Source of the DNA: an uncultured Acidobacteriaceae bacterium
Lineage (GTDB): Bacteria > Acidobacteriota > Terriglobia > Terriglobales > Acidobacteriaceae
Direction: 5' to 3'
Length of the DNA stretch: 64,000 bases
Assembly (NCBI GenBank): GCA_963817305.1
Contig: CAWFOD010000017.1
Span: 357,821 to 421,820, forward strand
The position numbers were made by a program, and so were the translations under genes. Position 1 is the first letter of the stretch. Each line of letters starts with the position of its first letter. The notes beneath the pieces were generated by a model, which saw only the letters and a program-made list of their open reading frames with translations, was not told the DNA's origin and did no database searches. Shown here in pieces: positions 44,111 to 55,955 of this stretch.

Positions 44111-45000
44111 TGTCATCCTGAGGCAGGAGTCCTCGGCTACGCCGAGGACTCCCAACGAAGGACCTATGCAATTCGCCGACAGCACACAAGCTGGCGGGCA
44201 GCCTCACACGCGCTTCCATTTCCACGACCGAGGCTGCCCCACTCGTCGCGCTTTTCGACGAGTGGGAACCACGGACCTCAAAGTTCCGTTTCCGTCGCCA
44301 CCACAAGCGCCTGGGGCGGCCAATGAATATTCATGCGACTTCAGCCGACGCCCATTCTTCCGCATCTTGATTAACCACAATTGTCATCCTGAGGCAGCGG
44401 AGTCCTCGGCTACGCCGAGGACTCCCAACGAAGGACCTATGCAACTCGCCGACAGCACACAAGCTGGCGGCCCGCCTCACACGCGCTTCCATTTCCACGC
44501 CCGAGGCTGCCCCACTCGTCGCGTTTTTCGACGAGTGGGAACCACGGACCTCAAAGTTCCGTTTCCGTCGCCACCACAAGCGCCTGGGGCGGCCAATGAA
44601 TATTCATGCGACTTCAGCCGACGCCCATTCTTCCGCATCTTGATTAACCACAATTGTCATCCTGAGGCAGCGGAGTCCTCGGCTACGCCGAGGACTCCCA
44701 ATGAAGGACCTATGCAACTCGCCGACAGCACACAAGCTGGCGGGCAGCCTCACGCGCGCTTCCATTTCCACGCCCGAGGCTGCCCCACTCGTCGCGTTTT
44801 TCGACGAGTGGGAACCACGGACCTCAAAGTTCCGTTTCCGTCGCCACCACAAGCGCCTGGGGCGGCCAATGAATATTCATGTGGCTTCAACCGACGCATT
44901 CTTTCGCGTGTCGACCAACGCCGATTGTCATCCTGAGGCAGCGGAGTCCTCGGCTACGCCGAGGACTCCCAACGAAGGACCTATGCAATTCGCCGAGGCA
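44111..45000. repeat. tandem array of three ~271-273-bp units, each with two long hairpins
   Basis: The module tgtcatcctgaggcag..ggagtcctcggctacgccgaggactcccaacgaaggacctatgcaa recurs at 44111, 44382, 44655 and 44926. Each unit also carries cccactcgtcgcg(c)ttttcgacgagtggg. Related single hairpins lie at 43940-44105. Confidence 0.9.
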
Positions 45001-45332: not shown

Positions 45333-45437
45333 GAGATACCAGACGACGTTCGCCAAACACCTTTTATGATAAACAGAGCAATTGAAATGTCAAACGACGG
45401 AGAAATTCGGTAGTGGGCTGTTTTGAATTTATTGGTT

Positions 45438-45833
45438 TTAGCTTGGCTTCGGGAACAGGTAATTGACCACGATGTATCCTAGACCCAAAACGTCGGCAGT
45501 GGTAGTTCCTATGAAAGCGATTAGAACCGAATTATCGAGATGAAAACCCAAAACATGAAAACCTAAAACATGAAAACCTTCCAACATCAGAACGGCCACT
45601 ACTGAGATGAGCCATCCAGCGCAGAGAGGGAAAAGCTTTTTTGCCCAGCGGTCGCGATGTCCAGTGTTTACACTGAGCGCATTATTCTCTAGGCGTAGCC
45701 TATCCAATTCTATCTTTTGGGTTTCAATCTGGTAGAACTCCCCGGCCGCTGGCGCAGCCGGGGCCACAACGATGCTATCGACCGTGAGGGCGGCGGGTTG
45801 ATTACCCTCTAACGGCGACTGGTTGTCTGTCAT
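45438..45833 (-). CDS. small membrane protein, candidate toxin partner of the Panacea-domain protein
   Basis: 131 aa. Its start overlaps the upstream gene by 32 nt. Two C-terminal hydrophobic helices. Internal 15-bp x3 repeat (GFHVLGFHVLGFHL). Confidence 0.5.
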   Translation of the reverse strand: MTDNQSPLEGNQPAALTVDSIVVAPAAPAAGEFYQIETQKIELDRLRLENNALSVNTGHRDRWAKKLFPLCAGWLISVVAVLMLEGFHVLGFHVLGFHLDNSVLIAFIGTTTADVLGLGYIVVNYLFPKPS

Positions 45834-46335
45834 GCTGGGATGCGGCGAGTCGCTCGAAATATTCCTTTATCACGTTGTCCGGAATATCCGTATTGCGAAC
45901 GTCCCTGTCGTAAACCTGACTCCACGGCGAATTTTCCGCGTGAGTCATGCTCGATAATTGACTGGCTGAATAACGACCATACAACTGCCAGACCCTAGCG
46001 ATGATTTGACGGGCGAGCATGTCTCGCGCAGGATCACCGCTATTAAGGCGATAGGCTCTAGTGACTACCTGTCCGTTCTCGAAATAAGCTTCGCCTGCTG
46101 GCGATGTGATTGGTCCACTCCCGTAACGCCTGAACTCGCTATACAGAGAAGGGATCACAGGCCCCCATTGCCACGCTTCGACACGTTCATCAAGAAGCCG
46201 TTCTCCAGTAATTGCCATGTACCAGCCGTAGGCAAAATAAACCAGCTTTTGCAACTGCATTGGAGTGAGCTGTTTGCCTTCGTTCTTGGCGAGCTCTAGG
46301 AACTCATTAGCTACTTGTTTTGAGGTGTACGGCAT
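45802..46335 (-). CDS. Panacea (DUF4065, SocA/GepA-like) domain antitoxin-type protein
   Basis: 177 aa. MPYTSKQVANEFLELAKNEGKQLTPMQLQKLVYFAYGWYMAITGERLLDERVEAWQWGPVIPSLYSEFRRYG matches the DUF4065 pattern closely. Confidence 0.8.
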   Translation of the reverse strand: MPYTSKQVANEFLELAKNEGKQLTPMQLQKLVYFAYGWYMAITGERLLDERVEAWQWGPVIPSLYSEFRRYGSGPITSPAGEAYFENGQVVTRAYRLNSGDPARDMLARQIIARVWQLYGRYSASQLSSMTHAENSPWSQVYDRDVRNTDIPDNVIKEYFERLAASQHDRQPVAVRG

Positions 46336-46458
46336 AACACGGTCTCCATCAGGTTAGATGGTGGAAGGGGAGCGAGAGATGCTACGCATGGCCAATGGCG
46401 GAAGCACCCGCTGAAGGGAGCCTACCACTAAATACTAAAACTGTCATCAATTTTTTAT

Positions 46459-47312
46459 TCATGCGGCTTTTAGCGTTGCAGTCGAACGTAGATGTACCAA
46501 TTCCCCCAAACTCCAAACGTGGTCCGCGAGGCCCGCTTCCATCGCAGGAGTGCCCCGCAATGTTTGATGAATGCGGCAAAAATTGTAGTACACATGATAG
46601 ATGGCAACCATATGGCAGTGGTTTTCAAACTTCTTCGAAAATGCCTTCGTCAAGCGTGTAAACCGTCGGACACCCATCCGCAAATTGAGATTTTGCCTCC
46701 CCACATAACTCGTGGAAATGTACTGGCGATCAGGGTCACCGCTCAAGATACCAGTGCAAATACCAATGCACTGCGCAGGGCTGTAGCGGCTATCAGGATT
46801 ATCGGCGGGAGAGCCGTACAACTTTATCAGCATCGCGTAATCCACTTCATTCCGAAAGCACCTTCGACAGCTTCCGCGTAAGCGCGGTGACCGTCAGTCG
46901 TGATCTGAATGCGCGTGGTCACACGCGACGCCAAATCCTCCATGAATTTGCAGGCCCACGACGCATCGCGCCCGCCACACAGGTACGAGAGAATCAGCTT
47001 GGAATCTGCGTCAATCGCGGTCCAAGTCCATACGCTCCCTGCTCCCGCTCCTTGCTTTGATTCAGGAACGTTCTTCTCTTTCGCGTAGCAGAAACTCCAC
47101 ACTTCATCACATTGCACGCGCTGGACGCGGACGCCACGCACTGCAGAATCGTGAAACGCCGCGCACGCCGCGCCCATGTCACGAATGAGTTTGAGAACCG
47201 CGTCCTTACAGACGCCAGTCATACGCACCGTGGAACGGATGCTGTTTCCCTCTATCAAGGCTCCGATTACCTGTGGGCGACGTTCATTTGTTAGGCGGTT
47301 CATGACAATCAT
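46459..47312 (-). pseudogene. IS1-family-like DDE transposase, split by a frameshift near 46845-46855
   Basis: ORF 46827-47312 has an HTH, then ..VQCDEVWSFCYAKEKNV..WTWTAIDADSKL..ITTDGHRAYAEAVEGAFG. ORF 46459-46845 has ..DYAMLIKLYG..RQNLNLRMGVRRFTRLTKAFSKKFENH... One base is missing relative to an intact frame. Confidence 0.75.
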
Positions 47313-47366
47313 TATGCTTGAGCGTTAAAGCAATGTCAAGCACAATCGCAGTTTGTTATAGGTTTA

Positions 47367-47396
47367 TTGACAATGTACCCCTTAAAGTGATATGAT
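47367..47396 (+). promoter_or_regulatory. sigma70-like promoter
   Basis: TTGACA (47367-47372), 18-nt spacer, TATGAT (47391-47396). It faces the 47631 gene. Confidence 0.35.
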
Positions 47397-47630
47397 TTAG
47401 AAATACTAAGGGCCATCGACCCTGGATAGGCTTGCCGGCATGCCCAGAGCGAATGGCCCGAAAGGTGGTTCAGATGATAAGAAGTTTCGCCCCTAAAAAG
47501 GGCTAAGGGCAAAGGAAACTCCCTACACGATCTGCCAGAGCGGGGGCGTTCCAGACGTGGTGCGTCCCCCAATTTGGCTTTATCAAATATACCACGAAAC
47601 GGGCCGATTTTCAATAACGAGGTTAAGGTC

Positions 47631-48167
47631 ATGAGCAACGAACAGAATCCATTTGAAGCTGCAATTGCCGCGCTAGAAGCACGTCGTGCGCAGGTTAATG
47701 CGGAGATCGATGCGGACGTTGCCAAGCTGCGCGAGATCGGAGAACGCATGTCTGGTATGGCCCTAACATCTGGTGCAACGCCGAGCACGCCAGCCAAGAT
47801 CGAAAAGGACACGTTTTTCAATATGACGTTGCCAGATGCTGCCAAGAAGTTTCTCGCAATGTCTAACAGGAAGACGCAAACTACGAATGCGATTATTGAC
47901 GCCCTTGAAAAGGGTGGCCTGAAAAAGACTACCTATGCATCGATGTACGCTAGCCTGAGCCGTCGCGAAAATAATGTAGGCGACATCGTGAACGTAAATG
48001 GCGACTGGGGGCTTCCTGAGTGGTACGGGGCTAAACCAAAACCCAAAAAACGCAGTGCTGTGTCACTTAACCCTAAAGACTTCGAGGACGACGACGCGGC
48101 GATTGCAGAACAACACGACCAGCAGCTACGAGACGAGGAAGAATTGAAGGTCAACACTGAAACCTAG
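47631..48167 (+). CDS. hypothetical protein (cargo of the IS1-like element)
   Basis: ORF 47574-48167. ATG at 47631 after a GAGG RBS (MSNEQNPFEAAIAALEARRAQ..). Acidic C-terminus. Confidence 0.5.
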   Translation: MSNEQNPFEAAIAALEARRAQVNAEIDADVAKLREIGERMSGMALTSGATPSTPAKIEKDTFFNMTLPDAAKKFLAMSNRKTQTTNAIIDALEKGGLKKTTYASMYASLSRRENNVGDIVNVNGDWGLPEWYGAKPKPKKRSAVSLNPKDFEDDDAAIAEQHDQQLRDEEELKVNTET

Positions 48168-48403
48168 CTCGGCTCGGCCTTTTCCGCCTTCCACCTTACC
48201 CTAGCAGCTTGGCTTGCAATCTCCCTTTTGCGCTCGGGACTCAGTTTTTCCGCTCGGCGTTTTCCGCCGACCTTTCCGCCTAGCTTCCCGAGGGCTACAG
48301 CCGCCGGATTCTTTTTCTTAGCCTTCAATGGTGCGCCTGTCGCGATCTCCACAACCCTCAGCGCATTCTGTGCGAAATCTCTCTTGCTTGACCGTTTAAC
48401 CAT
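48164..48403 (-). CDS. small basic protein (79 aa), phage/plasmid-type KGG..RW tail
   Basis: NPAAVALGKLGGKVGGKRRAEKLSPERKREIASQAARVRW is a motif I recall from mobile-element proteins; this is from memory only. Confidence 0.45.
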   Translation of the reverse strand: MVKRSSKRDFAQNALRVVEIATGAPLKAKKKNPAAVALGKLGGKVGGKRRAEKLSPERKREIASQAARVRWKAEKAEPS

Positions 48404-48511
48404 GATTCAGTTTCCCAGACTTACATTGCTACGCGCAACACTAATCTGGCTAAAATTCAAAACAGCCCACTACCAGAAATTCGGAAACGCGTTTCGTCGC
48501 ATAATCGTGTC

Positions 48512-48544
48512 CGTGAAATAAAACGGGCCGCCCGAAGGCGGCCC
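48512..48544 (-). terminator. rho-independent terminator downstream of the 727-aa radical SAM gene
   Basis: GGGCCGCC-CGAA-GGCGGCCC (48525-48544). On the minus strand it is followed by GTTTTATTT. Confidence 0.6.
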
Positions 48545-48571
48545 GATAGCTTTTAAGTTAGAATCTGCCTC

Positions 48572-50755
48572 TCAATCCCCCGCCACCGGCTCACCCACTT
48601 CCGGTTTCGGAGCTGCAGCGATTCCACCGTTCGGCTTGCCCAACGCGCCCAGCGGAATAAATCCATTTTCCGCCACCGCAGGTTTTTCTTTCAGCACAAC
48701 TTCACGATACAGCGAAGCCATGCGCGCGTTGTAAGCCTCATCATTTTTCTGCGGTCCGCGATGTCCCGGAATCGGAGTCTCGGAGTGATCGACCGCCAAA
48801 GCCGCCTTCGCATCCCGTGCCCGCTTCTTCTCCTCGCGCGCATTCTTCGCGATGCCCAGCTTGTCGAGATCGTGCTGCAGTTCGTTGGTGACGATGTCCT
48901 CACGCAACAGCAGCGAGTGCGCCTCGTCCTCCATCTTCACTTTCTTTCCGCCGGCAAAAATCTCGTGCCGTCCATGCTCTTCGTACCACTTGGTAAGCGT
49001 GGCCGTCATGTGCATCTTCTCGATAATGTTTCTCCAGCCCACGCCCGTGTTGTAAGCGCAGAATGAAATCTCGCCCTCCTGCGTCGCATAAGGAATAATG
49101 CACTGCTCGGTTCTGCGGAAGTCATAGTTGAACAAATCCTGGAACCACATTCCCGCGATGAACAGGAAATTCCAGCGATCGGTTGTACGCCGCTTCATCA
49201 CATCCTCGACCGTCCGGTCCGGCCCAACTTTGCCGTAGTTCTTTCCCGTGATGTGATAGTTCTTGTCGAACTTCTTCAGCAGATCCATCAGCTTGAAATG
49301 TGTCGGCGATTGGAACGGATCGTAATTCTTCATCAGGCACAGCGCCATGCCAAACCCGGTCAAGAATTTTCCGCGCGACGCATCGTTCACCTTGGCGATG
49401 TCTTTCGCCAGTTGATCCCCCGCCAAAAACGCGGTCACCGGCACGGCCTCTTTGGTTTCCTTATCAATCATCACCGCCATCCCCGTCCCGCAATTCGGGT
49501 GACAACCGCAGGATAGTTGGCCCCAGTCGTTTTTTGCGTCGTTGGCGTGCATTAGATCTGCCCAGTCGCTGAATGTTCCCATGAAGGAAATGGGGAACCA
49601 GTCGCGGCTGGGTTCGCCTAATCCGGTTTGATTTTTTACGTCGTGCGCCAGGTGAGAGAGCGTGTAGCGCTGGGCCTGGCGGCGATCGTCGGTGACGGCT
49701 TCGTCGCGTCCGGTGAAGCTTACTGGTTGGAAACTCAGGAAGCTGATCGTCTTCGGATTGTCGAGCGCGAACTTGATGATGCGTCCGACTTGTTCGTTGT
49801 TGATGCCGTTAACTATGGTTACGACCGGAACGATTTCTACTCCGGCTTTGTGCAAGTTCTCGATCGCTTTTAATTTCACATCGAACAAATTTCCGACCAT
49901 GCGGTGCGCGTTGGCAGCGTTTCCGATGCCATCGAATTGCAAGTACGCGTAACGCATTCCTGCTTCGACTGCCTGCTGGCAGAATTCAAAACTTTTTGCG
50001 AATTCAATTCCATTCGTTGCTGCTTGCACGGAGTTGTATCCGACTTTGCGCGCGTAGCGCACGGCGTCCAGGAAATATGGAGACAACGTAGGCTCGCCGC
50101 CGGAAAACTGAACGCTCATCTGACGTCGCGGCTTGATGGTAATCGCGTTGTCGAGCATCGTCTTGATTTCTTCCCACTGCAGTTCGTGTACGAAGCCGAC
50201 CTGGTTTGCGTCCATGAAGCAGGGATCGCACATCATGTTGCAGCGGTTGGTGAGATCGATGGTCAGCACGGAGCCGCGTCCATACTTCACGGTGGAGGAA
50301 CCGTGATGGTGAAGCTTCTCGTCGTTATGCGCGACGATGTCGCGTCCGGGGAAAACATCTTCGAGATGCTTCGAGAAATCGGTGTCGATCGACATCACGT
50401 CTTCGAAGTGGCCGTGCTTCGGACAATCTTTCACCATCAGAATTTTTCCGTCGCGCTCGACGATGGTGGCCTTGATCTCGCCGATTTTTTCGTTCATCAA
50501 GACTTCGTGCGGAAGTTTGCCATCGAGAATCTGCTGACGGATTTCGGGCACACACTTCGGGCAAAGAGAATCGGTGGAGCGCGGCCAGCCGAGCGGCGGC
50601 TTGGATTTTTCGTAGGACTTGAGCAGAGGCTTGTCGGACCATTTCGGGGTTGGGGACGCACCTGGGTTGATGCGGTTCAAACGATCGAACACTACCCAAG
50701 CGCCTTTGGCGGCGACTGTGACTGCTTTCTCTACGTACTTAATCGGCTTGCGCAT
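48572..50755 (-). CDS. radical SAM protein, tetraether-lipid-synthase (Tes / GDGT-MAS, COG1964)-like
   Basis: 727 aa. N-terminal Zn-ribbon-like TDSLCPKC...VKDCPKHGHFED, then IDLTNRCNMMCDPCF (CxxxCxxC) and VQFSGGEPTLSP..ATNGIEFAK. The radical SAM call is firm; the Tes-like call rests on my recollection of the family pattern. Confidence 0.75.
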   Translation of the reverse strand: MRKPIKYVEKAVTVAAKGAWVVFDRLNRINPGASPTPKWSDKPLLKSYEKSKPPLGWPRSTDSLCPKCVPEIRQQILDGKLPHEVLMNEKIGEIKATIVERDGKILMVKDCPKHGHFEDVMSIDTDFSKHLEDVFPGRDIVAHNDEKLHHHGSSTVKYGRGSVLTIDLTNRCNMMCDPCFMDANQVGFVHELQWEEIKTMLDNAITIKPRRQMSVQFSGGEPTLSPYFLDAVRYARKVGYNSVQAATNGIEFAKSFEFCQQAVEAGMRYAYLQFDGIGNAANAHRMVGNLFDVKLKAIENLHKAGVEIVPVVTIVNGINNEQVGRIIKFALDNPKTISFLSFQPVSFTGRDEAVTDDRRQAQRYTLSHLAHDVKNQTGLGEPSRDWFPISFMGTFSDWADLMHANDAKNDWGQLSCGCHPNCGTGMAVMIDKETKEAVPVTAFLAGDQLAKDIAKVNDASRGKFLTGFGMALCLMKNYDPFQSPTHFKLMDLLKKFDKNYHITGKNYGKVGPDRTVEDVMKRRTTDRWNFLFIAGMWFQDLFNYDFRRTEQCIIPYATQEGEISFCAYNTGVGWRNIIEKMHMTATLTKWYEEHGRHEIFAGGKKVKMEDEAHSLLLREDIVTNELQHDLDKLGIAKNAREEKKRARDAKAALAVDHSETPIPGHRGPQKNDEAYNARMASLYREVVLKEKPAVAENGFIPLGALGKPNGGIAAAPKPEVGEPVAGD

Positions 50756-51098
50756 ATTAGCTTCTGGCTCCTGGCTTCTAGCTCTTCGCTTGAATCTCCG
50801 GTTTCCGGGGCTGGCTTCAGCTTAATGAACGCGTTCGCCTGGCGCGGAACCTGAGATTCCAACGAATAGCTCGAGTTCTCCCAAGGAGTTGAACCTGGTT
50901 GATAAGACCCTGGTTTGTACACGTTTCCCTGGGAGTTGTCTGTGGCTATCCTATGGGAGGAGAAGAGGATAAGCACCTTTATCCCAACGAATGGGCGAAA
51001 AACGGGGTTTAGTGGTTGGATGGGGGATTGGATGGCGGTAAGTGATTGAAAGGAAAAGGCCCGATAAATGTGACACCCGGATGTGAGTGCCCGCCGGC

Positions 51099-51746
51099 CT
51101 ATGGAACCCGGATGTGGATAATCCGATCCACGACGCCGTTGGACTGACCGTGAATACAGCGCACGTTTAGCTTACTCATCTCTTCTGGGTCGCGGTATGT
51201 GCCATTCTGATCGAGCCGCTGCGCGCTGTAGTACTCGGGGTAGCAGGAAGCGATCACAAATTCGACAAACTGGCGGGGCCCAGGCACGCCTGAGACTGCA
51301 AACCTCGTCCTAGGAAACCCGCTGATGTGCATGTGGGACTCGTGGTGCAGTACCCCGGCTGCGTACTGTTGGGTGTAATCAAACCTTAGCCAGGGGATGA
51401 ACACGTCGGCGAAGTCGGGTAGAGGTCCGGGAGACAGAAGATCTTCCTCTTCCATGGGCAATTGAGCCTTGTAGAACGCGAGGCGCACCATCCGGATATT
51501 GTCGTTACCGTCAAATTCATATAAGAGCTGAAAGACGGAGCCGTCATCTGCGCACTGGAAGCTGTACTGTTTCTCTTCGACAACGGATCGGACCTTTTCA
51601 TAATTCACTGGCTCTCTAATAATGCCTCCCGAGTAGCGGTTCCAAGCTATTCGGGATCCGCTCCGGCAGAATCGGGGATTGACGAGCAGCGATTTCCAGT
51701 CCCAGAAACAATCTCGAACTTGGGATTCGACGTCGGCCGGACTCAC
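51099..51746 (-). CDS. hypothetical protein coupled to the SF1 helicase (possibly DUF2290-like)
   Basis: 215 aa. Its GTG start overlaps the helicase stop (GTGA). His-rich motif GVLHHESHMHISGFP. No domain I can verify by eye. Confidence 0.55.
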   Translation of the reverse strand: MSPADVESQVRDCFWDWKSLLVNPRFCRSGSRIAWNRYSGGIIREPVNYEKVRSVVEEKQYSFQCADDGSVFQLLYEFDGNDNIRMVRLAFYKAQLPMEEEDLLSPGPLPDFADVFIPWLRFDYTQQYAAGVLHHESHMHISGFPRTRFAVSGVPGPRQFVEFVIASCYPEYYSAQRLDQNGTYRDPEEMSKLNVRCIHGQSNGVVDRIIHIRVP

Positions 51747-53899
51747 TTTGCAGCCTTCTGAAGCAGCTTGAGCAGGGTCTTTCGGTCACCTTCGCTCAGA
51801 TCCGCTAGGGCTCCGGGAGCCAGAGCCTTGAGGCTTTCGACCGCCGCTTTAGCCGTCTTGACGGCTCGCCGCCGCCGCGTCGTCTCAGACGCGTCGAGCT
51901 TTCGGATTTTATCCATGTCGGGAAAAACGAACTTGAACCGAGGAATCTCATCAAGAATCTGTTTAAGCTCTTTTATTGCTTCGACCATTTTTCGGCCGGT
52001 GCCGGTTATTCTTACCCATCCCTTCGATCTGGATATGGACGTGAAGGCTCGATTGCGAGTCTCGATCTCCTCGGCGAAATCGTACAGCGATTGGAAACTC
52101 AATATATAAACGACTGGTGCCTCGTTTCCTTTCGCTCTGAACACCGTCGAAAGAGTGACCATGCCGGCCTCGGCGAAATCCGAGGCGTCGTCCACGAGTC
52201 CCGGGATAGTGGAAGCAATGCTCAGCTGCATCAGCATGCTTTGCAGCTGCATCATATAATCCTTCGCGCGCCTTGAATCCAGCGAGATGACCACAATCTG
52301 TTCGGGCGCAACCGCCTCATCTTTTATGTCCGAAGAGATGGAATTGGCAACCCACTGTAGCTCTGCTGCCAAGGTATTGAAGCTCTTTCCGGAGACCAGT
52401 TTCTGTTTGCCCGTGTACATCTGAGCAATTCGGCTTGGACTGTTTTCCGGTGGACGAAAAAGAACAACCTGGCTGCCCTGGTCAAGGTGCCCTGATTCAA
52501 TTTCGTATCCGACCGCCTTCCACGAGGTTTCGTCCCCCAGCATCTGAACTGGGCCCCGGGGGTTGTGGATTCCCAGCCCGACCGCGTGCGCGAGCATAAG
52601 TACCGTCTGAGGGCACCGATAGGATTTTAGGAGAACCAGGTCTCGGTCCATACCCTCGTCCTCGTCGACGTCCAGCGAAACGAGGGGCTTACCTTGCTCG
52701 TCGACGCCAAAAAGTTCTGCCGGATCGGGGATTTCGAGGGAGGCTAGGCTTTGCAGTTCATCATAGGCCCAATAAATGGCGTGGGGAGGCCTAGACAGCT
52801 TGTACAGAATGGGGAAGAACTCTTTGGGGAAGTCTTGGGCCTCGTCTACTAGGATGTAGTCGTACTCAGGATCGATTCTTTGTTGAAGAGCCGCTAAGCA
52901 GCAAGCCCGGAATGGTGTAAGGGAGTCCTGAGCCTTGGCCGACCGAAAATCCAGCGCCCTCGAGCCCTGTCTTTGAGTCAGATCATAGTACACTCCGGGT
53001 CGTGATCGGCCACCCCAGGCGTGGCGTATGTGGAGGATGTCCCAATCCGGATCGACGTCGCTGTAAAAGCGGAAAAAGCGAGTCACGAGATTGCGGGCTT
53101 GGTTGTAGAGGCTTTGTGTATTGAACGTTAGGAGGAGCTTTTTGTCGGGGAAGTGATGGTGAATATTAGCTGCCTTCATTGCCAGGAGGACGGTCTTTCC
53201 AGTGCCCGCGAGGCCGCGGATGCGTTGCGGCCCGGGCGGTATTTGGATGGCGACTTTGTTCTGCTGTTCGTCGAGCAATGCTATATCCGTATCTAGCATT
53301 TTTATCGCGCTGCCGAGGGTGTCCGCCGTTCTCGCCGTCCCGCCCGGGTTTCTTGTCAGAGGGATGGCGGTTTGAAGGACCGATCTTGCGAGTCGCCACT
53401 GTTGGCTGTCGAGCGGCTGATTAAGTCTTAGGAGGTGTTCGTTGGCACCCTCGCCTCCGGACCAAATGACATTCGCAAGTGGTCCGAATTTCTTGCAGAA
53501 TTCCGATTTTGTGCATAAAGGGAGGCCCACGACCGGTTTCGGGTCGAGGCGCCGGCGGAGGTCGCGCACTTTATCGAATCTTGTCCGGAGCTCTGTGGCC
53601 AGGTCGTCAATAACGACGCCCGGAGAGTCAATTTCTATTTCGTGCTTTCCTTCCTGAATCCACCATGTGTCGTCTTCGATAGCAACGATGCGCTCAAGCG
53701 TGATATCGAAACACTTCACCACGATGGGCTGGTAGAGCTGAAGTAGGAAGACTAGGTCCGGCGTCCCAGAAACACCCACGATGGGATATTTGTAGTAACA
53801 GATGCCTTCGGCTTTGCCAGCAGCTTCCTCTATCCACTGGAAGGTCGTCTTAACAGGAAGATCGCCAGCGAATCCCGAGAGGGACGCTAGAAATTCCAT
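51743..53899 (-). CDS. superfamily 1 (UvrD/Rep-like) helicase with an N-terminal nuclease-like (NERD/PD-(D/E)xK-like) region
   Basis: 718 aa. Walker A GLAGTGKT, motif II ILVDEAQDF, YRCPQTV, STVFRAKGNEAPVVYIL, RNRAFTSISRSKGWVRI. The N-terminal ..TPDLVFLL..IVVKCFD.. resembles a D..(E/x)xK nuclease core; that part is inference. Confidence 0.8.
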   Translation of the reverse strand: MEFLASLSGFAGDLPVKTTFQWIEEAAGKAEGICYYKYPIVGVSGTPDLVFLLQLYQPIVVKCFDITLERIVAIEDDTWWIQEGKHEIEIDSPGVVIDDLATELRTRFDKVRDLRRRLDPKPVVGLPLCTKSEFCKKFGPLANVIWSGGEGANEHLLRLNQPLDSQQWRLARSVLQTAIPLTRNPGGTARTADTLGSAIKMLDTDIALLDEQQNKVAIQIPPGPQRIRGLAGTGKTVLLAMKAANIHHHFPDKKLLLTFNTQSLYNQARNLVTRFFRFYSDVDPDWDILHIRHAWGGRSRPGVYYDLTQRQGSRALDFRSAKAQDSLTPFRACCLAALQQRIDPEYDYILVDEAQDFPKEFFPILYKLSRPPHAIYWAYDELQSLASLEIPDPAELFGVDEQGKPLVSLDVDEDEGMDRDLVLLKSYRCPQTVLMLAHAVGLGIHNPRGPVQMLGDETSWKAVGYEIESGHLDQGSQVVLFRPPENSPSRIAQMYTGKQKLVSGKSFNTLAAELQWVANSISSDIKDEAVAPEQIVVISLDSRRAKDYMMQLQSMLMQLSIASTIPGLVDDASDFAEAGMVTLSTVFRAKGNEAPVVYILSFQSLYDFAEEIETRNRAFTSISRSKGWVRITGTGRKMVEAIKELKQILDEIPRFKFVFPDMDKIRKLDASETTRRRRAVKTAKAAVESLKALAPGALADLSEGDRKTLLKLLQKAAK

Positions 53900-54519: not shown

Positions 54520-55074
54520 TTATGGATGGCGTTCTTGCTCCGGATAATCTTCCTCCGGATAATCTTCCTCTGGATAATCTTCCTCTGGATAATCCTCGTC
54601 TGGATAGTCTTCGTCGATGCTGGCGTGGAGGGTTAGGGGAGGGTCGAGTTGGTGCCAGGCTTCGCGGTATTTTTCGAGGCGCATGATGCGGGCGTTGCGA
54701 TGGGGATAGAAGCGGAGCATGGGTTGGGGAGTGCAGACTTCGACGGGGATGATGTACCAGATGTCGAGCGGGACGACGTGGGCGGCGATGAAATCGATGT
54801 CGCGCTTGGTGTAGACGGCGCGGCGTTTGCCGACGGTGTAGGTGGCGCGGGTTTCATAGGCATCGGCGCGGAGGGAGTCGGTGCACTTGATCTGTATCCG
54901 GAAGAGGTGAACTGCTGGTTGGGGGCGGTTGTCGAGGATGAAATCGTAACGTTCGGAGTCTCCCCAGGGCTTGGAGATGGCGAAGCAGCGCTGGCTGGCC
55001 TGGTAGAGGAATGCGGCTTCGGAGCGCTCGCCGGTGCGTTTGGTGTTGGGGCGGAGGGGATCGCGCTTCGGCAT
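54520..55074 (-). CDS. PD-(D/E)XK endonuclease (group I intron-associated type, PDDEXK_5-like) with a C-terminal (D/E)EDYP x5 repeat
   Basis: 184 aa. TGERSEAAFLYQASQRCFAISKPWGDSERYDFILDN...FRIQIKCT matches the family pattern. The tail is DEDYPDEDYPEEDYPEEDYPEEDYPEQERHP. Confidence 0.65.
   Translation of the reverse strand: MPKRDPLRPNTKRTGERSEAAFLYQASQRCFAISKPWGDSERYDFILDNRPQPAVHLFRIQIKCTDSLRADAYETRATYTVGKRRAVYTKRDIDFIAAHVVPLDIWYIIPVEVCTPQPMLRFYPHRNARIMRLEKYREAWHQLDPPLTLHASIDEDYPDEDYPEEDYPEEDYPEEDYPEQERHP
54541..54615. repeat. 15-bp tandem repeat x5 (coding, acidic pentapeptide)
   Basis: (c/t)ggataatcttcctc repeated five times; the last two copies are diverged. Confidence 0.9.
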
Positions 55075-55204: not shown

Positions 55205-55955
55205 TTAGTTCTGGGCCAGGTTTTGAGTTGGTTTCGGTTTGGCGTGGGCTGAGGTGGGTTTTGGGGTGGAGGGTTTTTTCGCGGGAGTGGCGGCGGATTT
55301 GGCGGCGAGTTTCTTTTTGTTGAAGTCACGGACGATGCGGGCGACGTAGGCTTTGGTTTCGTAGTAGGGAGGGACTCCGTTGTATTGCTCGACGCGTTGC
55401 GGTCCGGCGTTGTAGGCGGCAAGAGCTTTGATGAGGTCGAAGTTGTAACGCTCGAGCAGGGTGCGGAGATAGCGGGTTCCGGCTTCGACGTTGGCTTGCG
55501 GGTCGAAGGCGTTGTGCACGCCGAGTTGGCTGGCGGTTTGCGGCATGAGCTGCATTAATCCTTGCGCGCCTTTGGGCGAGATGGCGTGGACGTTGAAATC
55601 GCTTTCGGCGCGGATGACGCTGGTGACGAGATCGGGATCGAGCCGGTAGGTGCCGCTGGCATCTTTCACAGTCTGATTCAGATCGAAGGGATGCGAAGCG
55701 ATGACGGCTGGCTGCGCGAGTGGAGCGGGGGTTGGAGGGTCGGGCACGGATTCGAAGTGATCGATATCGGCGGTGGGAATGTCGACGAAGTTGGATTGAC
55801 CGCTATCGATGTAGAGGCGAGTGATGGAGCCGATGGTTTGGCGATGGTTGTGGGCGATGGAGAATCCGTTGCGCAGGATGGCGGAGTCGGAGGCGAAGGC
55901 GTTCGCGAGCGAGTATCGCGATGTAATGAGTCCGAGTTGGACGCGATTGTTTCAT
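55205..55955 (-). CDS. lytic transglycosylase (SLT domain); N-terminus probably displaced by a 1-nt insertion at 55950-55952
   Basis: ORF 55205-55747 carries VIRAESDFNVHAISPKGAQGLMQLMP...AYNAGP. The frame stays open upstream to 55951. An ATG at 55955 is one base out of frame; removing one A of the AAA run gives MNNRVQLGLITSRYSLANAFASDS.. Confidence 0.75.

What the first reader, a model, noticed from the sequence alone, without database searches (positions are those of the whole stretch)
48572..50755. 727-aa radical SAM protein resembling archaeal tetraether lipid synthase (Tes / GDGT-MAS)
The layout is an N-terminal Zn-ribbon-like CPKC...CPKHG segment, IDLTNRCNMMCDPCF, VQFSGGEPTLSP, ATNGIEF and a long C-terminal extension. 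This matches my recollection of the COG1964/Tes family, which couples lipid tails into membrane-spanning tetraethers. Acidobacteria are the suspected producers of branched GDGTs, whose biosynthetic genes are still being resolved, so a Tes-like gene here is of biogeochemical interest. The family assignment is from memory, not from a search.
Basis: inference. Interest (0 to 1): 0.6.

Follow-up and report, generated by a model that had tools for sequence, protein, structure and literature searches.

The report
Divergent acidobacterial Tes-like lipid-coupling enzyme
This gene encodes a soil-acidobacterial relative of the archaeal enzyme that welds two lipid tails into one membrane-spanning lipid; it belongs to a divergent, near-universal acidobacterial branch that has lost one of the enzyme's four metal centres, and it is a published but still untested candidate for making the bacterial lipids used as palaeoclimate proxies.

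Summary
The protein is a genuine whole-length homolog of archaeal tetraether synthase Tes/GDGT-MAS: PDB 7TOL gives E 5e-63, and the AlphaFold model matches 7TOM with TM 0.84 over about 560 columns.

It is not a member of the curated Tes family. It scores 316 bits against a 450-bit cutoff. It falls in a sister clade ("clade B") that lacks all four ligands of the N-terminal [4Fe-4S] cluster. It keeps the rubredoxin-like site, the radical-SAM cluster, the SAM-binding residues and the C-terminal cluster (3 Cys + Met) on which the C-C coupling intermediate forms. Clade B adds a conserved amphipathic N-terminal helix, a 22-residue insert in the zinc ribbon and a 130-residue tail.

The gene is single-copy and monocistronic, with no conserved neighbours. 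It is a core gene: 57/57 genomes of its family and 284/301 of its class. Canonical Tes is rare in the phylum (42/401) and mostly complementary.

The most likely function (about 0.55) is tail-to-tail coupling of iso-C15 chains to give iso-diabolic-acid membrane-spanning lipids. This is unproven. Bacterial Tes homologs were already proposed in print, and this scan reached the same reading before on other genomes.

The parts
48572..50755 (-). CDS of the 727-aa clade-B Tes-like radical SAM protein (stop codon 48572-48574)
   Evidence: ORF listing; Pfam Radical_SAM + Zn_ribbon_HMPTM; NCBIfam Tes 316 bits; PDB 7TOL E 4.7e-63; AF2 model pLDDT 80.9 with Foldseek 7TOM TM 0.84
50672..50749 (-). Clade-B-specific N-terminal helix (residues 3-28), amphipathic; inferred in-plane membrane anchor
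   Evidence: AF2 helix 3-28 with pLDDT 82-95; hydrophobic moment 0.57 and no TM segment anywhere; conserved at 0.76-0.78 in clade B and mostly absent from clade A
50390..50584 (-). Rubredoxin-like zinc-ribbon domain (residues 58-122), C65-X2-C68-X42-C111-X2-H114, with a 22-residue insert relative to MJ0619
   Evidence: Pfam PF23545 E 4e-13. C65, C68, C111 and H114 are invariant in 75 sequences of both clades. C111/H114 align to the MJ0619 ligands C33/H36; C65/C68 are matched to C9/C12 by motif only, because the MJ0619 residues available here start at residue 15 (PMC9433317). Insert shown by clade-A gap fraction of 0.5-0.6
50276..50335 (-). Degenerate remnant of the [4Fe-4S]N site (residues 141-160, 'AHNDEKLHHHGSSTVKYGR'): all four ligands replaced (K147, H151, S154, K157)
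   Evidence: Ligand-column table; the only internal low-confidence stretch of the model, pLDDT 48-53; motif AHNDExLHxHGSST conserved at 0.87 within clade B
49706..50269 (-). Radical SAM core (residues 163-350) with CX3CX2C (C172, C176, C179), GGEP, and SAM-binding F180, R285, Q343, S346
   Evidence: Pfam PF04055 E 1.5e-17; residue mapping to MJ0619 F106, R210, Q268, S271
48971..49618 (-). C-terminal auxiliary-cluster and lipid-pocket domain (residues 380-595) with C422, M536, C552, C566 and Y556
   Evidence: These four columns, corresponding to MJ0619 C338, M439, C455 and C470, are the ones conserved across the family and invariant in alignment A2. Y459 maps to Y556. Only Tes/GDGT-MAS matches this half of the protein
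48575..48958 (-). Clade-B-specific charged C-terminal tail (residues 600-727); conserved blocks at 600-640 and 681-700, the rest variable and predicted disordered
   Evidence: Absent from clade A, gap fraction 0.8-1.0; pLDDT below 50 after residue 660
48524..48545 (-). Intrinsic-terminator-like hairpin (9 G-C pairs, then TTTTATTT) 27 nt after the stop codon
50768..50772 (-). Shine-Dalgarno AGGAG, 12 nt upstream of the ATG
   Evidence: Sequence read
50871..50935 (-). Conserved leader element: two copies of CCCNGGGA(A/G)A flanking a variable-length insert, about 115-180 nt upstream of the start
   Evidence: Shared by 17 of 73 related loci whose upstream genes differ; a 6-bp stem is predicted but shows no covariation; no Rfam match. 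Function unknown

Best explanation
The gene encodes a radical-SAM lipid tail-coupling enzyme of a bacterial sister branch of archaeal tetraether synthase. The inferred mechanism follows GDGT-MAS. The protein sits on the cytoplasmic face of the membrane, probably through its amphipathic N-terminal helix. It takes the hydrophobic tails of two phospholipids into two hydrophobic pockets. The radical-SAM cluster (C172/C176/C179) cleaves SAM to give a 5'-deoxyadenosyl radical, which abstracts H from the terminal methyl of an iso-C15 chain. That carbon radical is parked as a C-S bond on the C-terminal [4Fe-4S] cluster (C422/C552/C566, with labile M536). A second SAM activates the second chain, which attacks the parked carbon to form the omega-omega C-C bond. 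The product would be iso-diabolic acid (13,16-dimethyl-octacosanedioic acid) spanning the membrane. If the substrate is ether-linked, or after later ester-to-ether reduction, the product would be a brGDGT-type lipid. Unlike the archaeal enzyme, this one works with three metal centres and not four: the surface-exposed N-terminal [4Fe-4S] cluster is gone, so electrons must reach the active site by another route. SHOWN here: homology, fold, retention or loss of each ligand set, clade position and distribution. INFERRED: substrate, product, membrane association and electron path.
For: (1) Whole-length homology and fold. PDB 7TOL gives E 4.7e-63 over query 93-591. The AF2 model (pLDDT 80.9, pTM 0.83) matches 7TOM/7TOL with E 6.5e-35 and TM 0.84 over 557-567 columns, while the next hit (MoaA, 1e-8) covers only the rSAM core. 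(2) The catalytic inventory is kept: rubredoxin C/H, CX3CX2C, SAM-binding F180/R285/Q343/S346, Y556, and the C-terminal cluster ligands C422/M536/C552/C566. All of these are invariant across 75 clade-A and clade-B sequences. In GDGT-MAS it is this C-terminal cluster that carries the substrate-sulfur intermediate (PMC9433317). (3) Core-gene distribution: 57/57 genomes of its family, and 284/301 genomes and 119/125 genera of its class at E<=1e-150; about 197/401 genomes of the phylum. Named orthologs occur in Acidipila rosea (SD1), Pyrinomonas methylaliphatogenes and Blastocatellia (SD4), Korobacteraceae and Bryobacterales. The literature reports these groups as iso-diabolic-acid producers (SD1, 3, 4, 6; PMC13274423, PMC13159169). 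(4) Canonical Tes is rare and largely complementary: 42/401 genomes, of which only about 8 also carry clade B. That pattern is what one expects of two enzymes doing the same job. (5) It is the only Tes-like gene in this genome, and published searches found no Mss homolog in Acidobacteria (PMC13159169). (6) Identity is 75-98% across genera, which indicates strong purifying selection.
Against: No activity has been shown for any bacterial Tes homolog. The protein is only 30-32% identical to MJ0619 and below the curated Tes cutoff. One metal centre is missing. Tes paralogs need not share function: MA_1114 made no GDGT, and haloarchaea with Tes homologs make none (PMC8941075). No lipid gene is linked to it. 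I could not name the acidobacterial families that lack the gene, so the correlation with iso-diabolic acid is one-sided. Some clade-B relatives have lost further ligands, or even the rSAM motif, which shows the clade is functionally plastic.
Confidence: 0.55

Rival explanations
1. It is a true tetraether (brGDGT) synthase. It would couple the tails of dialkyl glycerol diether lipids, exactly as archaeal Tes does with archaeol, and would not act on ester-linked phospholipids.
For: It shares fold and catalytic residues with Tes. The same genome encodes a 1214-aa protein with two BcrAD_BadFG domains plus DUF2229. That is the 'BBD' core which Sahonero-Canavesi et al. report as conserved in all Ger/PlsA homologs of alkyl-ether producers, so ether substrates could exist. 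E. aggregans, whose reported Tes homolog (32% identity, E 4e-61) has the identity and score typical of clade B, makes some brGDGT (PMC8941075).
Against: The Ger/PlsA-like gene is patchy (23/61 genomes of the family, and not found in a same-genus genome), while the Tes-like gene is universal (57/57). Most SD1 strains make abundant ester-bound iso-diabolic acid but little or no brGDGT (PMC13274423). The strong brGDGT producer S. usitatus carries a canonical homolog at 40% identity (bioRxiv 10.1101/2022.04.07.487437). GDGT-MAS itself binds ester-linked phosphatidic acid (PMC9433317), so the ester/ether distinction may not be enforced by the enzyme.
Confidence: 0.15
2. It is a lipid-modifying radical SAM enzyme with different chemistry on the acyl chain. 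Possibilities include intramolecular macrocyclisation, mid-chain cross-linking (Gms-like) or ring formation, as opposed to intermolecular omega-omega coupling.
For: It is a divergent sister clade with extra N- and C-terminal parts and a lost cluster. Archaeal Tes also makes macrocyclic archaeol, and the paralog MA_1114 makes only traces of it (PMC8941075). Eight genomes carry both clades, and in one genus the two genes lie 4-6 kb apart, which could mean the functions are complementary and not redundant.
Against: The two clades are mostly mutually exclusive across the phylum. Its universality in the class fits a bulk core lipid trait better than a minor modification. There is no cobalamin or methyl-donor domain.
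Confidence: 0.2
3. It acts on a non-lipid substrate, as a cofactor-biosynthesis or peptide-maturation radical SAM enzyme. This covers the old 'class D methylase / 7,8-dihydro-6-hydroxymethylpterin dimethyltransferase' label that JGI still attaches to many orthologs.
For: JGI names; weak NCBIfam hits of the rSAM core to NirJ, MoaA, SPASM maturases and TrsS.
Against: Those hits cover only residues about 160-380 and lie far below their cutoffs (for example TrsS 206 vs 490). The C-terminal half matches only Tes. Lloyd et al. could not corroborate the pterin-methylase assignment and showed that the pocket is a hydrophobic lipid tunnel (PMC9433317). No precursor peptide or cofactor genes are linked in 80 loci. 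Acidobacteria do not make methanopterin (established knowledge).
Confidence: 0.07

Closest known systems
GDGT-MAS / Tes of Methanocaldococcus jannaschii (MJ0619; PDB 7TOL, 7TOM) and the functional archaeal Tes proteins MA_1486 and Maeo_0574
   Same: The overall four-part fold is shared (TM 0.84). So are the rubredoxin-like CX2C...CX2H site, the CX3CX2C radical-SAM cluster, the SAM-binding F/R/Q/S residues, the conserved Tyr, and the C-terminal [4Fe-4S] ligands (3 Cys + labile Met).
   Different: Identity is only 31.6%. All four [4Fe-4S]N ligands are lost. There is a 22-residue insert in the zinc ribbon, a conserved 40-60-residue N-terminal extension with an amphipathic helix, and a 130-residue tail. 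The host is bacterial, with ester-linked iso-branched fatty acids and not phytanyl ethers. It falls in the sister clade in the tree.
Canonical bacterial Tes homologs (clade A), which NCBI names 'tetraether lipid synthase Tes' in Bryobacteraceae; the published S. usitatus and K. versatilis homologs at 40-42% identity are of this type
   Same: Same phylum and same family-level homology. Both are proposed in print as candidates for membrane-spanning lipid synthesis (PMC8941075, PMC10087280).
   Different: Clade A keeps CX3CX2CX2H, is about 540-590 aa long, and scores 501-583 bits on NF045702 against 316 here. Clade A occurs in 42/401 genomes of the phylum, against about 197/401 for clade B.
Mss, the membrane-spanning lipid synthase of Thermotoga maritima and Thermoanaerobacter ethanolicus (Sahonero-Canavesi 2022)
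   Same: It is a radical SAM enzyme that makes diabolic or iso-diabolic acids by tail-to-tail coupling. That is the same product class as I propose here.
   Different: It is a different radical-SAM lineage: the authors found no Tes homolog in those organisms and no Mss homolog in Acidobacteria (PMC13159169). I had no Mss sequence and could not compare directly.
TrsS radical SAM (seleno)protein, NF045646
   Same: It shares the zinc-ribbon plus rSAM N-terminal half (206 bits).
   Different: The score is far below the 490-bit cutoff, and the best stretch covers only residues 92-378 of the window protein.

Membership tests
Tetraether lipid synthase Tes (NCBIfam NF045702 equivalog) | Whole-protein score at or above the curated cutoff of 450 bits | tested here: not met
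   316.4 bits. Orthologs from Acidipila (333), Pyrinomonas (329) and L105 (315) also fail, while clade-A acidobacterial proteins score 501-583.
Tes / GDGT-MAS (structure 7TOL) | Rubredoxin-like mononuclear Fe site, CX2C...CX2H | tested here: met
   C65, C68, C111 and H114 are invariant; Pfam PF23545 E 4e-13.
Tes / GDGT-MAS (structure 7TOL) | N-terminal auxiliary [4Fe-4S] cluster ligated by C73, C77, C80 and a conserved His | tested here: not met
   The aligned residues are K147, H151, S154 and K157. The same loss is seen in all clade-B sequences examined. The region is modelled as a low-confidence loop.
Tes / GDGT-MAS (structure 7TOL) | Radical SAM CX3CX2C cluster and SAM-binding residues | tested here: met
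   C172/C176/C179, plus F180, R285, Q343 and S346.
Tes / GDGT-MAS (structure 7TOL) | C-terminal auxiliary [4Fe-4S] cluster (3 Cys + labile Met439) beside the lipid pockets | tested here: met
   C422, M536, C552 and C566 align with MJ0619 C338, M439, C455 and C470 and are invariant in A2. The identity of the three Cys as ligands is inferred from conservation; the paper names only Met439.
Tes / GDGT-MAS (structure 7TOL) | Whole fold, including the C-terminal lipid-binding domain | tested here: met
   Foldseek 7TOM E 6.5e-35, TM (target) 0.84, 567 columns.
Tes / GDGT-MAS | Placement inside the clade that holds the characterised enzymes | tested here: not met
   In the IQ-TREE tree, MJ0619 lies in an 18-row canonical clade (98/100). 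The window protein lies in the sister clade of N-cluster-less sequences (94/93).
Tes / GDGT-MAS | Catalysis of Csp3-Csp3 coupling between two lipid tails | not testable with these tools
   This needs heterologous expression or an in vitro assay. I found no published test of any bacterial homolog.
Radical SAM superfamily (PF04055) | Pfam gathering score and CX3CX2C motif | tested here: met
   64.7 bits vs a 29.5 cutoff.
TrsS radical SAM (seleno)protein (NF045646) | Score at or above 490 bits | tested here: not met
   205.9 bits, N-terminal half only.
Mss bacterial membrane-spanning lipid synthase | Sequence homology to the T. maritima / T. ethanolicus Mss | not tested
   No Mss sequence or model was available to the tools. 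The literature reports no Mss homologs in Acidobacteria (PMC13159169).

The most novel reading that the evidence does not exclude
Clade B would be the long-sought iso-diabolic-acid synthase of Acidobacteria: a three-metal-centre version of tetraether synthase that works in aerobic soil bacteria on ester-linked phospholipids. On this reading, the published conclusion that only 3 of 14 iso-diabolic-acid-producing acidobacteria have a Tes homolog, and so must use another pathway, would be a threshold artefact. Clade B sits at 30-32% identity, exactly on the 30% filter that study used. The gene would then be a direct genomic marker for the main terrestrial source of brGDGT precursors.
Probability: 0.5. 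Interest if true: 0.75.

Novelty: new variant of a known kind. Interest (0 to 1): 0.5.

Why it matters
brGDGTs are among the most widely used terrestrial palaeothermometers and pH proxies, yet the enzyme that joins the two iso-C15 chains in their acidobacterial producers has never been demonstrated. This work separates two acidobacterial Tes-like lineages. It shows that the divergent lineage, not the canonical one, is the core gene of Terriglobia (284/301 genomes). It also offers a simple reason why a strict homology filter under-counted it. Together these points give experimenters a precise target and a checklist: two [4Fe-4S] clusters plus one Fe, no N-terminal cluster, and an N-terminal amphipathic helix. 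They also suggest a marker gene for metagenomic source attribution. For radical-SAM enzymology, it is a natural experiment on whether the [4Fe-4S]N cluster of GDGT-MAS is dispensable.

Tried and rejected
1. Conserved gene neighbourhood. Clustering all ORFs of at least 100 aa within +-8 kb in 80 related loci found no non-overlapping neighbour shared by more than 13 of 81 loci, so context gives no functional clue.

2. None are present here.

3. Riboswitch or known RNA in the leader. There was no Rfam match at E<=1.

4. Structure in the conserved leader element. Only a 6-bp invariant stem was predicted, with zero covariation, so this is unresolved.

5. Naming the acidobacterial families that lack the gene, by fetching rpoB from negative genomes and scanning the named collection. 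The best matches were only 68% identical and the genomes' own records did not appear, so I abandoned this. The lipid correlation therefore stays one-sided.

6. Supplementary table S21 of Sahonero-Canavesi 2022 is not held, and the Zeng 2022 supplements list no species names I could use.

8. Measuring distances between putative ligands in the model. The coordinates are not exposed to the Python box.

9. HGD-D (PF06050) domain of Ger. It was not found in the own genome; only the BBD core is present.

10. Rejected labels. The 'pterin dimethyltransferase' label is an obsolete annotation of MJ0619. TrsS scores below its cutoff and matches only the N-terminal half. SPASM peptide maturases give only weak core hits, and there is no linked precursor gene.

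11. The 316-aa antisense ORF at 49904-50854 (+) and other overlapping ORFs are shadow frames of the conserved gene.
Full report
OBSERVATION. The ORF is exactly as described: 48572..50755 on the minus strand, 727 aa, with an ATG start. All quoted motifs are in the translation. AGGAG lies 12 nt upstream of the ATG. A strong terminator-like hairpin (9 G-C pairs plus a T-run) lies at 48545-48524, just after the stop codon. The gene is therefore a self-contained monocistronic unit.

In this genome it lies between accessory DNA on both sides. Downstream is an IS1-like element carrying a Panacea-type antitoxin. Upstream is a UvrD-like helicase + DUF2290 pair (earlier scan notes).

WHAT IT IS RELATED TO. 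Pfam finds Radical_SAM (residues 168-330) and the 'HMPTM' zinc ribbon (58-122). The best NCBIfam model is the Tes equivalog NF045702, matched end to end (profile 2-483 of 486). However, the score is 316 bits against a cutoff of 450. The next model, TrsS, scores 206 bits over the N-terminal half only. Everything else (NirJ, MoaA, SPASM maturases) touches only the rSAM core.

Among solved structures, the only strong sequence match is GDGT-MAS of M. jannaschii (7TOL, E 4.7e-63, query 93-591). I built an AlphaFold2 model on a 75-sequence alignment (pLDDT 80.9, pTM 0.83). It superposes on 7TOM/7TOL with E 6.5e-35 and TM 0.84 over about 560 columns. The next hit (MoaA, 1e-8) covers the core alone.

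METAL CENTRES. Lloyd et al. (PMC9433317) define four centres in GDGT-MAS:
- a rubredoxin-like Fe site, C9-X2-C12-X20-C33-X2-H36;
- [4Fe-4S]N, ligated by C73/C77/C80 plus a conserved His;
- the CX3CX2C radical-SAM cluster;
- [4Fe-4S]C, with three Cys and the labile Met439. This is the cluster that carries the substrate-sulfur intermediate.

I rebuilt MJ0619 residues 15-492 from the HMMER printout (the numbering was verified against the published ligands). I then aligned them with 30 relatives. The window protein keeps:
- the rubredoxin pair (C111/H114, plus C65/C68);
- the radical-SAM triad (C172/C176/C179);
- the family-invariant C-terminal set C422/M536/C552/C566.

It also keeps the SAM-binding F180/R285/Q343/S346 and the conserved Tyr (Y556).

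At the [4Fe-4S]N positions it has K147, H151, S154 and K157. No Cys is left there. The same loss occurs in every close and distant ortholog examined (Acidipila rosea, G033 copies, P0121, P0134). The canonical group, including three acidobacterial proteins, keeps C-C-C-H. In the model this stretch (141-160) is the only internal low-confidence segment. It is nonetheless conserved in clade B as AHNDExLHxHGSST. Whether those His residues bind anything is unknown.

TWO LINEAGES. A maximum-likelihood tree was built from 34 rows under LG+C20 and rooted on four other rSAM proteins of the same genome. It splits the family into two groups. The canonical clade holds MJ0619 (18 rows, support 98/100). The sister group holds the N-cluster-less sequences, including the window protein (94/93).

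The split is mirrored in NF045702 scores:
- clade A acidobacterial proteins score 501-583 bits, and NCBI names them 'tetraether lipid synthase Tes [Bryobacteraceae]';
- clade B proteins (window 316, Acidipila 333, Pyrinomonas 329, L105 315) all fail the cutoff.

Relative to clade A, clade B has three additions:
- a conserved N-terminal extension whose residues 3-28 form a confident amphipathic helix (muH 0.57), with no transmembrane segment anywhere in the protein;
- a 22-residue insert in the zinc ribbon;
- a tail of about 130 residues that is partly conserved and otherwise disordered.

DISTRIBUTION. The closest named relatives are MAGs labelled uncultured Acidobacteriaceae or 'Ca. Sulfotelmatobacter' (90-98% identity), and the cultured Acidipila rosea (76%). 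The own genome (5.94 Mb, 94% complete) has a single Tes-like gene and no canonical Tes.

In a sample of 401 high-quality Acidobacteriota genomes, 240 have a match at E<=1e-30, and the E-values are bimodal. About 197 genomes carry orthologs (E<1e-189, 60-96% identity). About 43 carry only the distant class. At E<=1e-150 the ortholog is present in 57/57 genomes of its family and in 284/301 genomes (119/125 genera) of its class. Most of the misses are fragmented assemblies.

Canonical Tes (above cutoff) is present in only 42/401 genomes. About 34 of these lack clade B and about 8 have both. Kin are not independent, so I attach no P-value. The pattern is largely complementary.

Named clade-B orthologs also occur in Pyrinomonas methylaliphatogenes and other Blastocatellia (SD4), in Korobacteraceae and in Bryobacterales. 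These are the subdivisions reported to make iso-diabolic acid (SD1, 3, 4, 6; PMC13274423, PMC13159169).

I could not name the families that lack the gene. The negative side of the correlation is therefore untested.

CONTEXT. Among 80 related loci, no neighbouring gene is conserved in more than 13. In one genus of the same family, the clade-B and clade-A genes lie 4-6 kb apart, separated only by a BNR-repeat protein.

The own genome does carry a 1214-aa protein with two BcrAD_BadFG domains plus DUF2229. This is the 'BBD' core that Sahonero-Canavesi et al. found in all Ger/PlsA homologs of alkyl-ether producers. No HGD-D domain was detected. This gene is accessory: it occurs in 23/61 genomes of the family and was not found in a same-genus genome. 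Such a split fits a universal C-C coupling step combined with sporadic ether formation. That reading is an inference.

LITERATURE.
- Zeng et al. 2022 (PMC8941075) reported 456 bacterial Tes homologs. They list E. aggregans at 32% identity and E 4e-61, which is the identity and score typical of clade B, and Koribacter and Solibacter at 42% and 40%, typical of clade A. They proposed a role in brGDGT synthesis.
- Chen et al. and Halamka et al. used the canonical homolog to pick S. usitatus.
- Sahonero-Canavesi et al. 2022 found no Mss in Acidobacteria. They found Tes homologs in only 3 of 14 iso-diabolic-acid producers under a filter of E<=1e-50 and >=30% identity, and they suggested an alternative pathway.
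- Here, clade-B proteins are 30.0-32.0% identical to MJ0619, with about 216 bits. That is exactly on the filter edge, so under-counting is a plausible explanation. This is an inference, because their query was Maeo_0574, which I could not test.
- A 2026 review (PMC13459092) and a 2026 AEM paper (PMC13274423) still list no functional test of a bacterial Tes homolog.

MECHANISM AND CONFIDENCE. [quoted passage not shown] The rivals are:
- a strict diether (brGDGT) synthase (0.15);
- a different lipid-tail radical reaction (0.20);
- a non-lipid substrate (0.07).

Shown here: homology, fold, the ligand inventory, clade position, and core-gene and complementary distribution. Inferred: substrate, product, membrane docking through the N-terminal helix, and an altered electron path after loss of [4Fe-4S]N.

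NOVELTY AND SCORE. The candidate role is published, and this copy is an ordinary member of a very large, highly conserved subfamily. Other agents of this scan reached the same 'one cluster short' reading on other genomes, and I confirmed it independently here.

Four points go beyond the papers I could read:
- the explicit two-clade split;
- the loss of one metal centre;
- the near-universality of clade B in the class, against the rarity of canonical Tes;
- the threshold explanation for the '3 of 14' discrepancy.

I rate the finding a new variant of a known kind, with interest 0.5.

Noticed in passing
window 50871-50935 (minus strand): A conserved 5' leader element lies about 115-180 nt upstream of the start. 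It consists of two copies of CCCNGGGA(A/G)A ('CCCAGGGAAACGTGTA' ... 'CTCCTTGGGAGAAC') flanking a variable-length insert. It is shared by 17 of 73 related loci whose upstream genes differ. There is no Rfam hit, and the predicted 6-bp stem shows no covariation.
   Followed up: partly
L059, L015, L016, L023, L051 (about 100 nt before the start codon); window 50756-50800: In the Sulfotelmatobacter-like relatives the last ~60-100 nt before the ATG is a run of purine-rich 9-10-nt units (AGCCAAAAGC / AGCCAGGAGC). The number of copies varies between genomes, and the Shine-Dalgarno sequence is embedded in the last unit.
   Followed up: no
L108 = G033:C58:180433-182031 (another acidobacterial genome, family f31): This is a third clade-B paralog (569-aa frame, similar to P0149). 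Its radical-SAM CX3CX2C motif is replaced by 'NLNKQPNLVAEFP' and its GGEP by 'TGDDVT', while the rubredoxin Cys and the C-terminal cluster motifs are kept. It is a 'pseudo-radical-SAM' Tes-like protein and possibly a non-catalytic partner.
   Followed up: partly
G000:C4:686790-690434 (L099:6791-10435, +): A 1214-aa protein has two BcrAD_BadFG activase domains plus DUF2229, the 'BBD' core of PlsA/Ger ester-to-ether reductases. No HGD-D domain was detected in the genome. It is present in 23/61 genomes of the family and was not found in a same-genus genome.
   Followed up: partly
G000:C17:207710-217346 (L109), about 150 kb upstream of the window: A cluster of a HAD + NAD_binding_4 + Sterile fatty-acyl-reductase-like protein (786 aa), a second NAD_binding_4 reductase (376 aa), a pyruvyl-transferase-like protein and two AMP-binding acyl-activating enzymes. 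It may be a fatty-alcohol or ether-lipid-related locus.
   Followed up: no
L195 (G355:C29:228000-246000) and G223:C14, G140:C18: One genus (g7) of the window's family carries both lineages. The clade-B gene and a canonical (above-cutoff) Tes gene lie on the same strand 4-6 kb apart, separated by a 1066-aa BNR/Sortilin-repeat protein on the opposite strand.
   Followed up: partly
window 51099-53899 (minus strand): A UvrD-like helicase (718 aa) overlaps a DUF2290 protein (215 aa) immediately upstream of the Tes-like gene. An earlier scan note reads this as the known Helicase + DUF2290 defence pair.
   Followed up: no
window 45401-48482: IS1-like element fragments (DDE domain at 46827-47312) carry a SocA/Panacea antitoxin gene (45802-46335) and a small overlapping partner. 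The element ends 89 nt from the stop codon of the Tes-like gene.
   Followed up: no
window 44166-44936: Three tandem ~272-bp units give long repetitive ORFs on both strands. These are probably non-coding repeats at the edge of the accessory segment.
   Followed up: no
window 54520-55074 (minus strand): A PD-(D/E)XK endonuclease (PF11645) has a C-terminal (E/D)EDYP x5 tail encoded by a 15-bp repeat. An SLT lytic transglycosylase lies next to it at 55205-55747.
   Followed up: no
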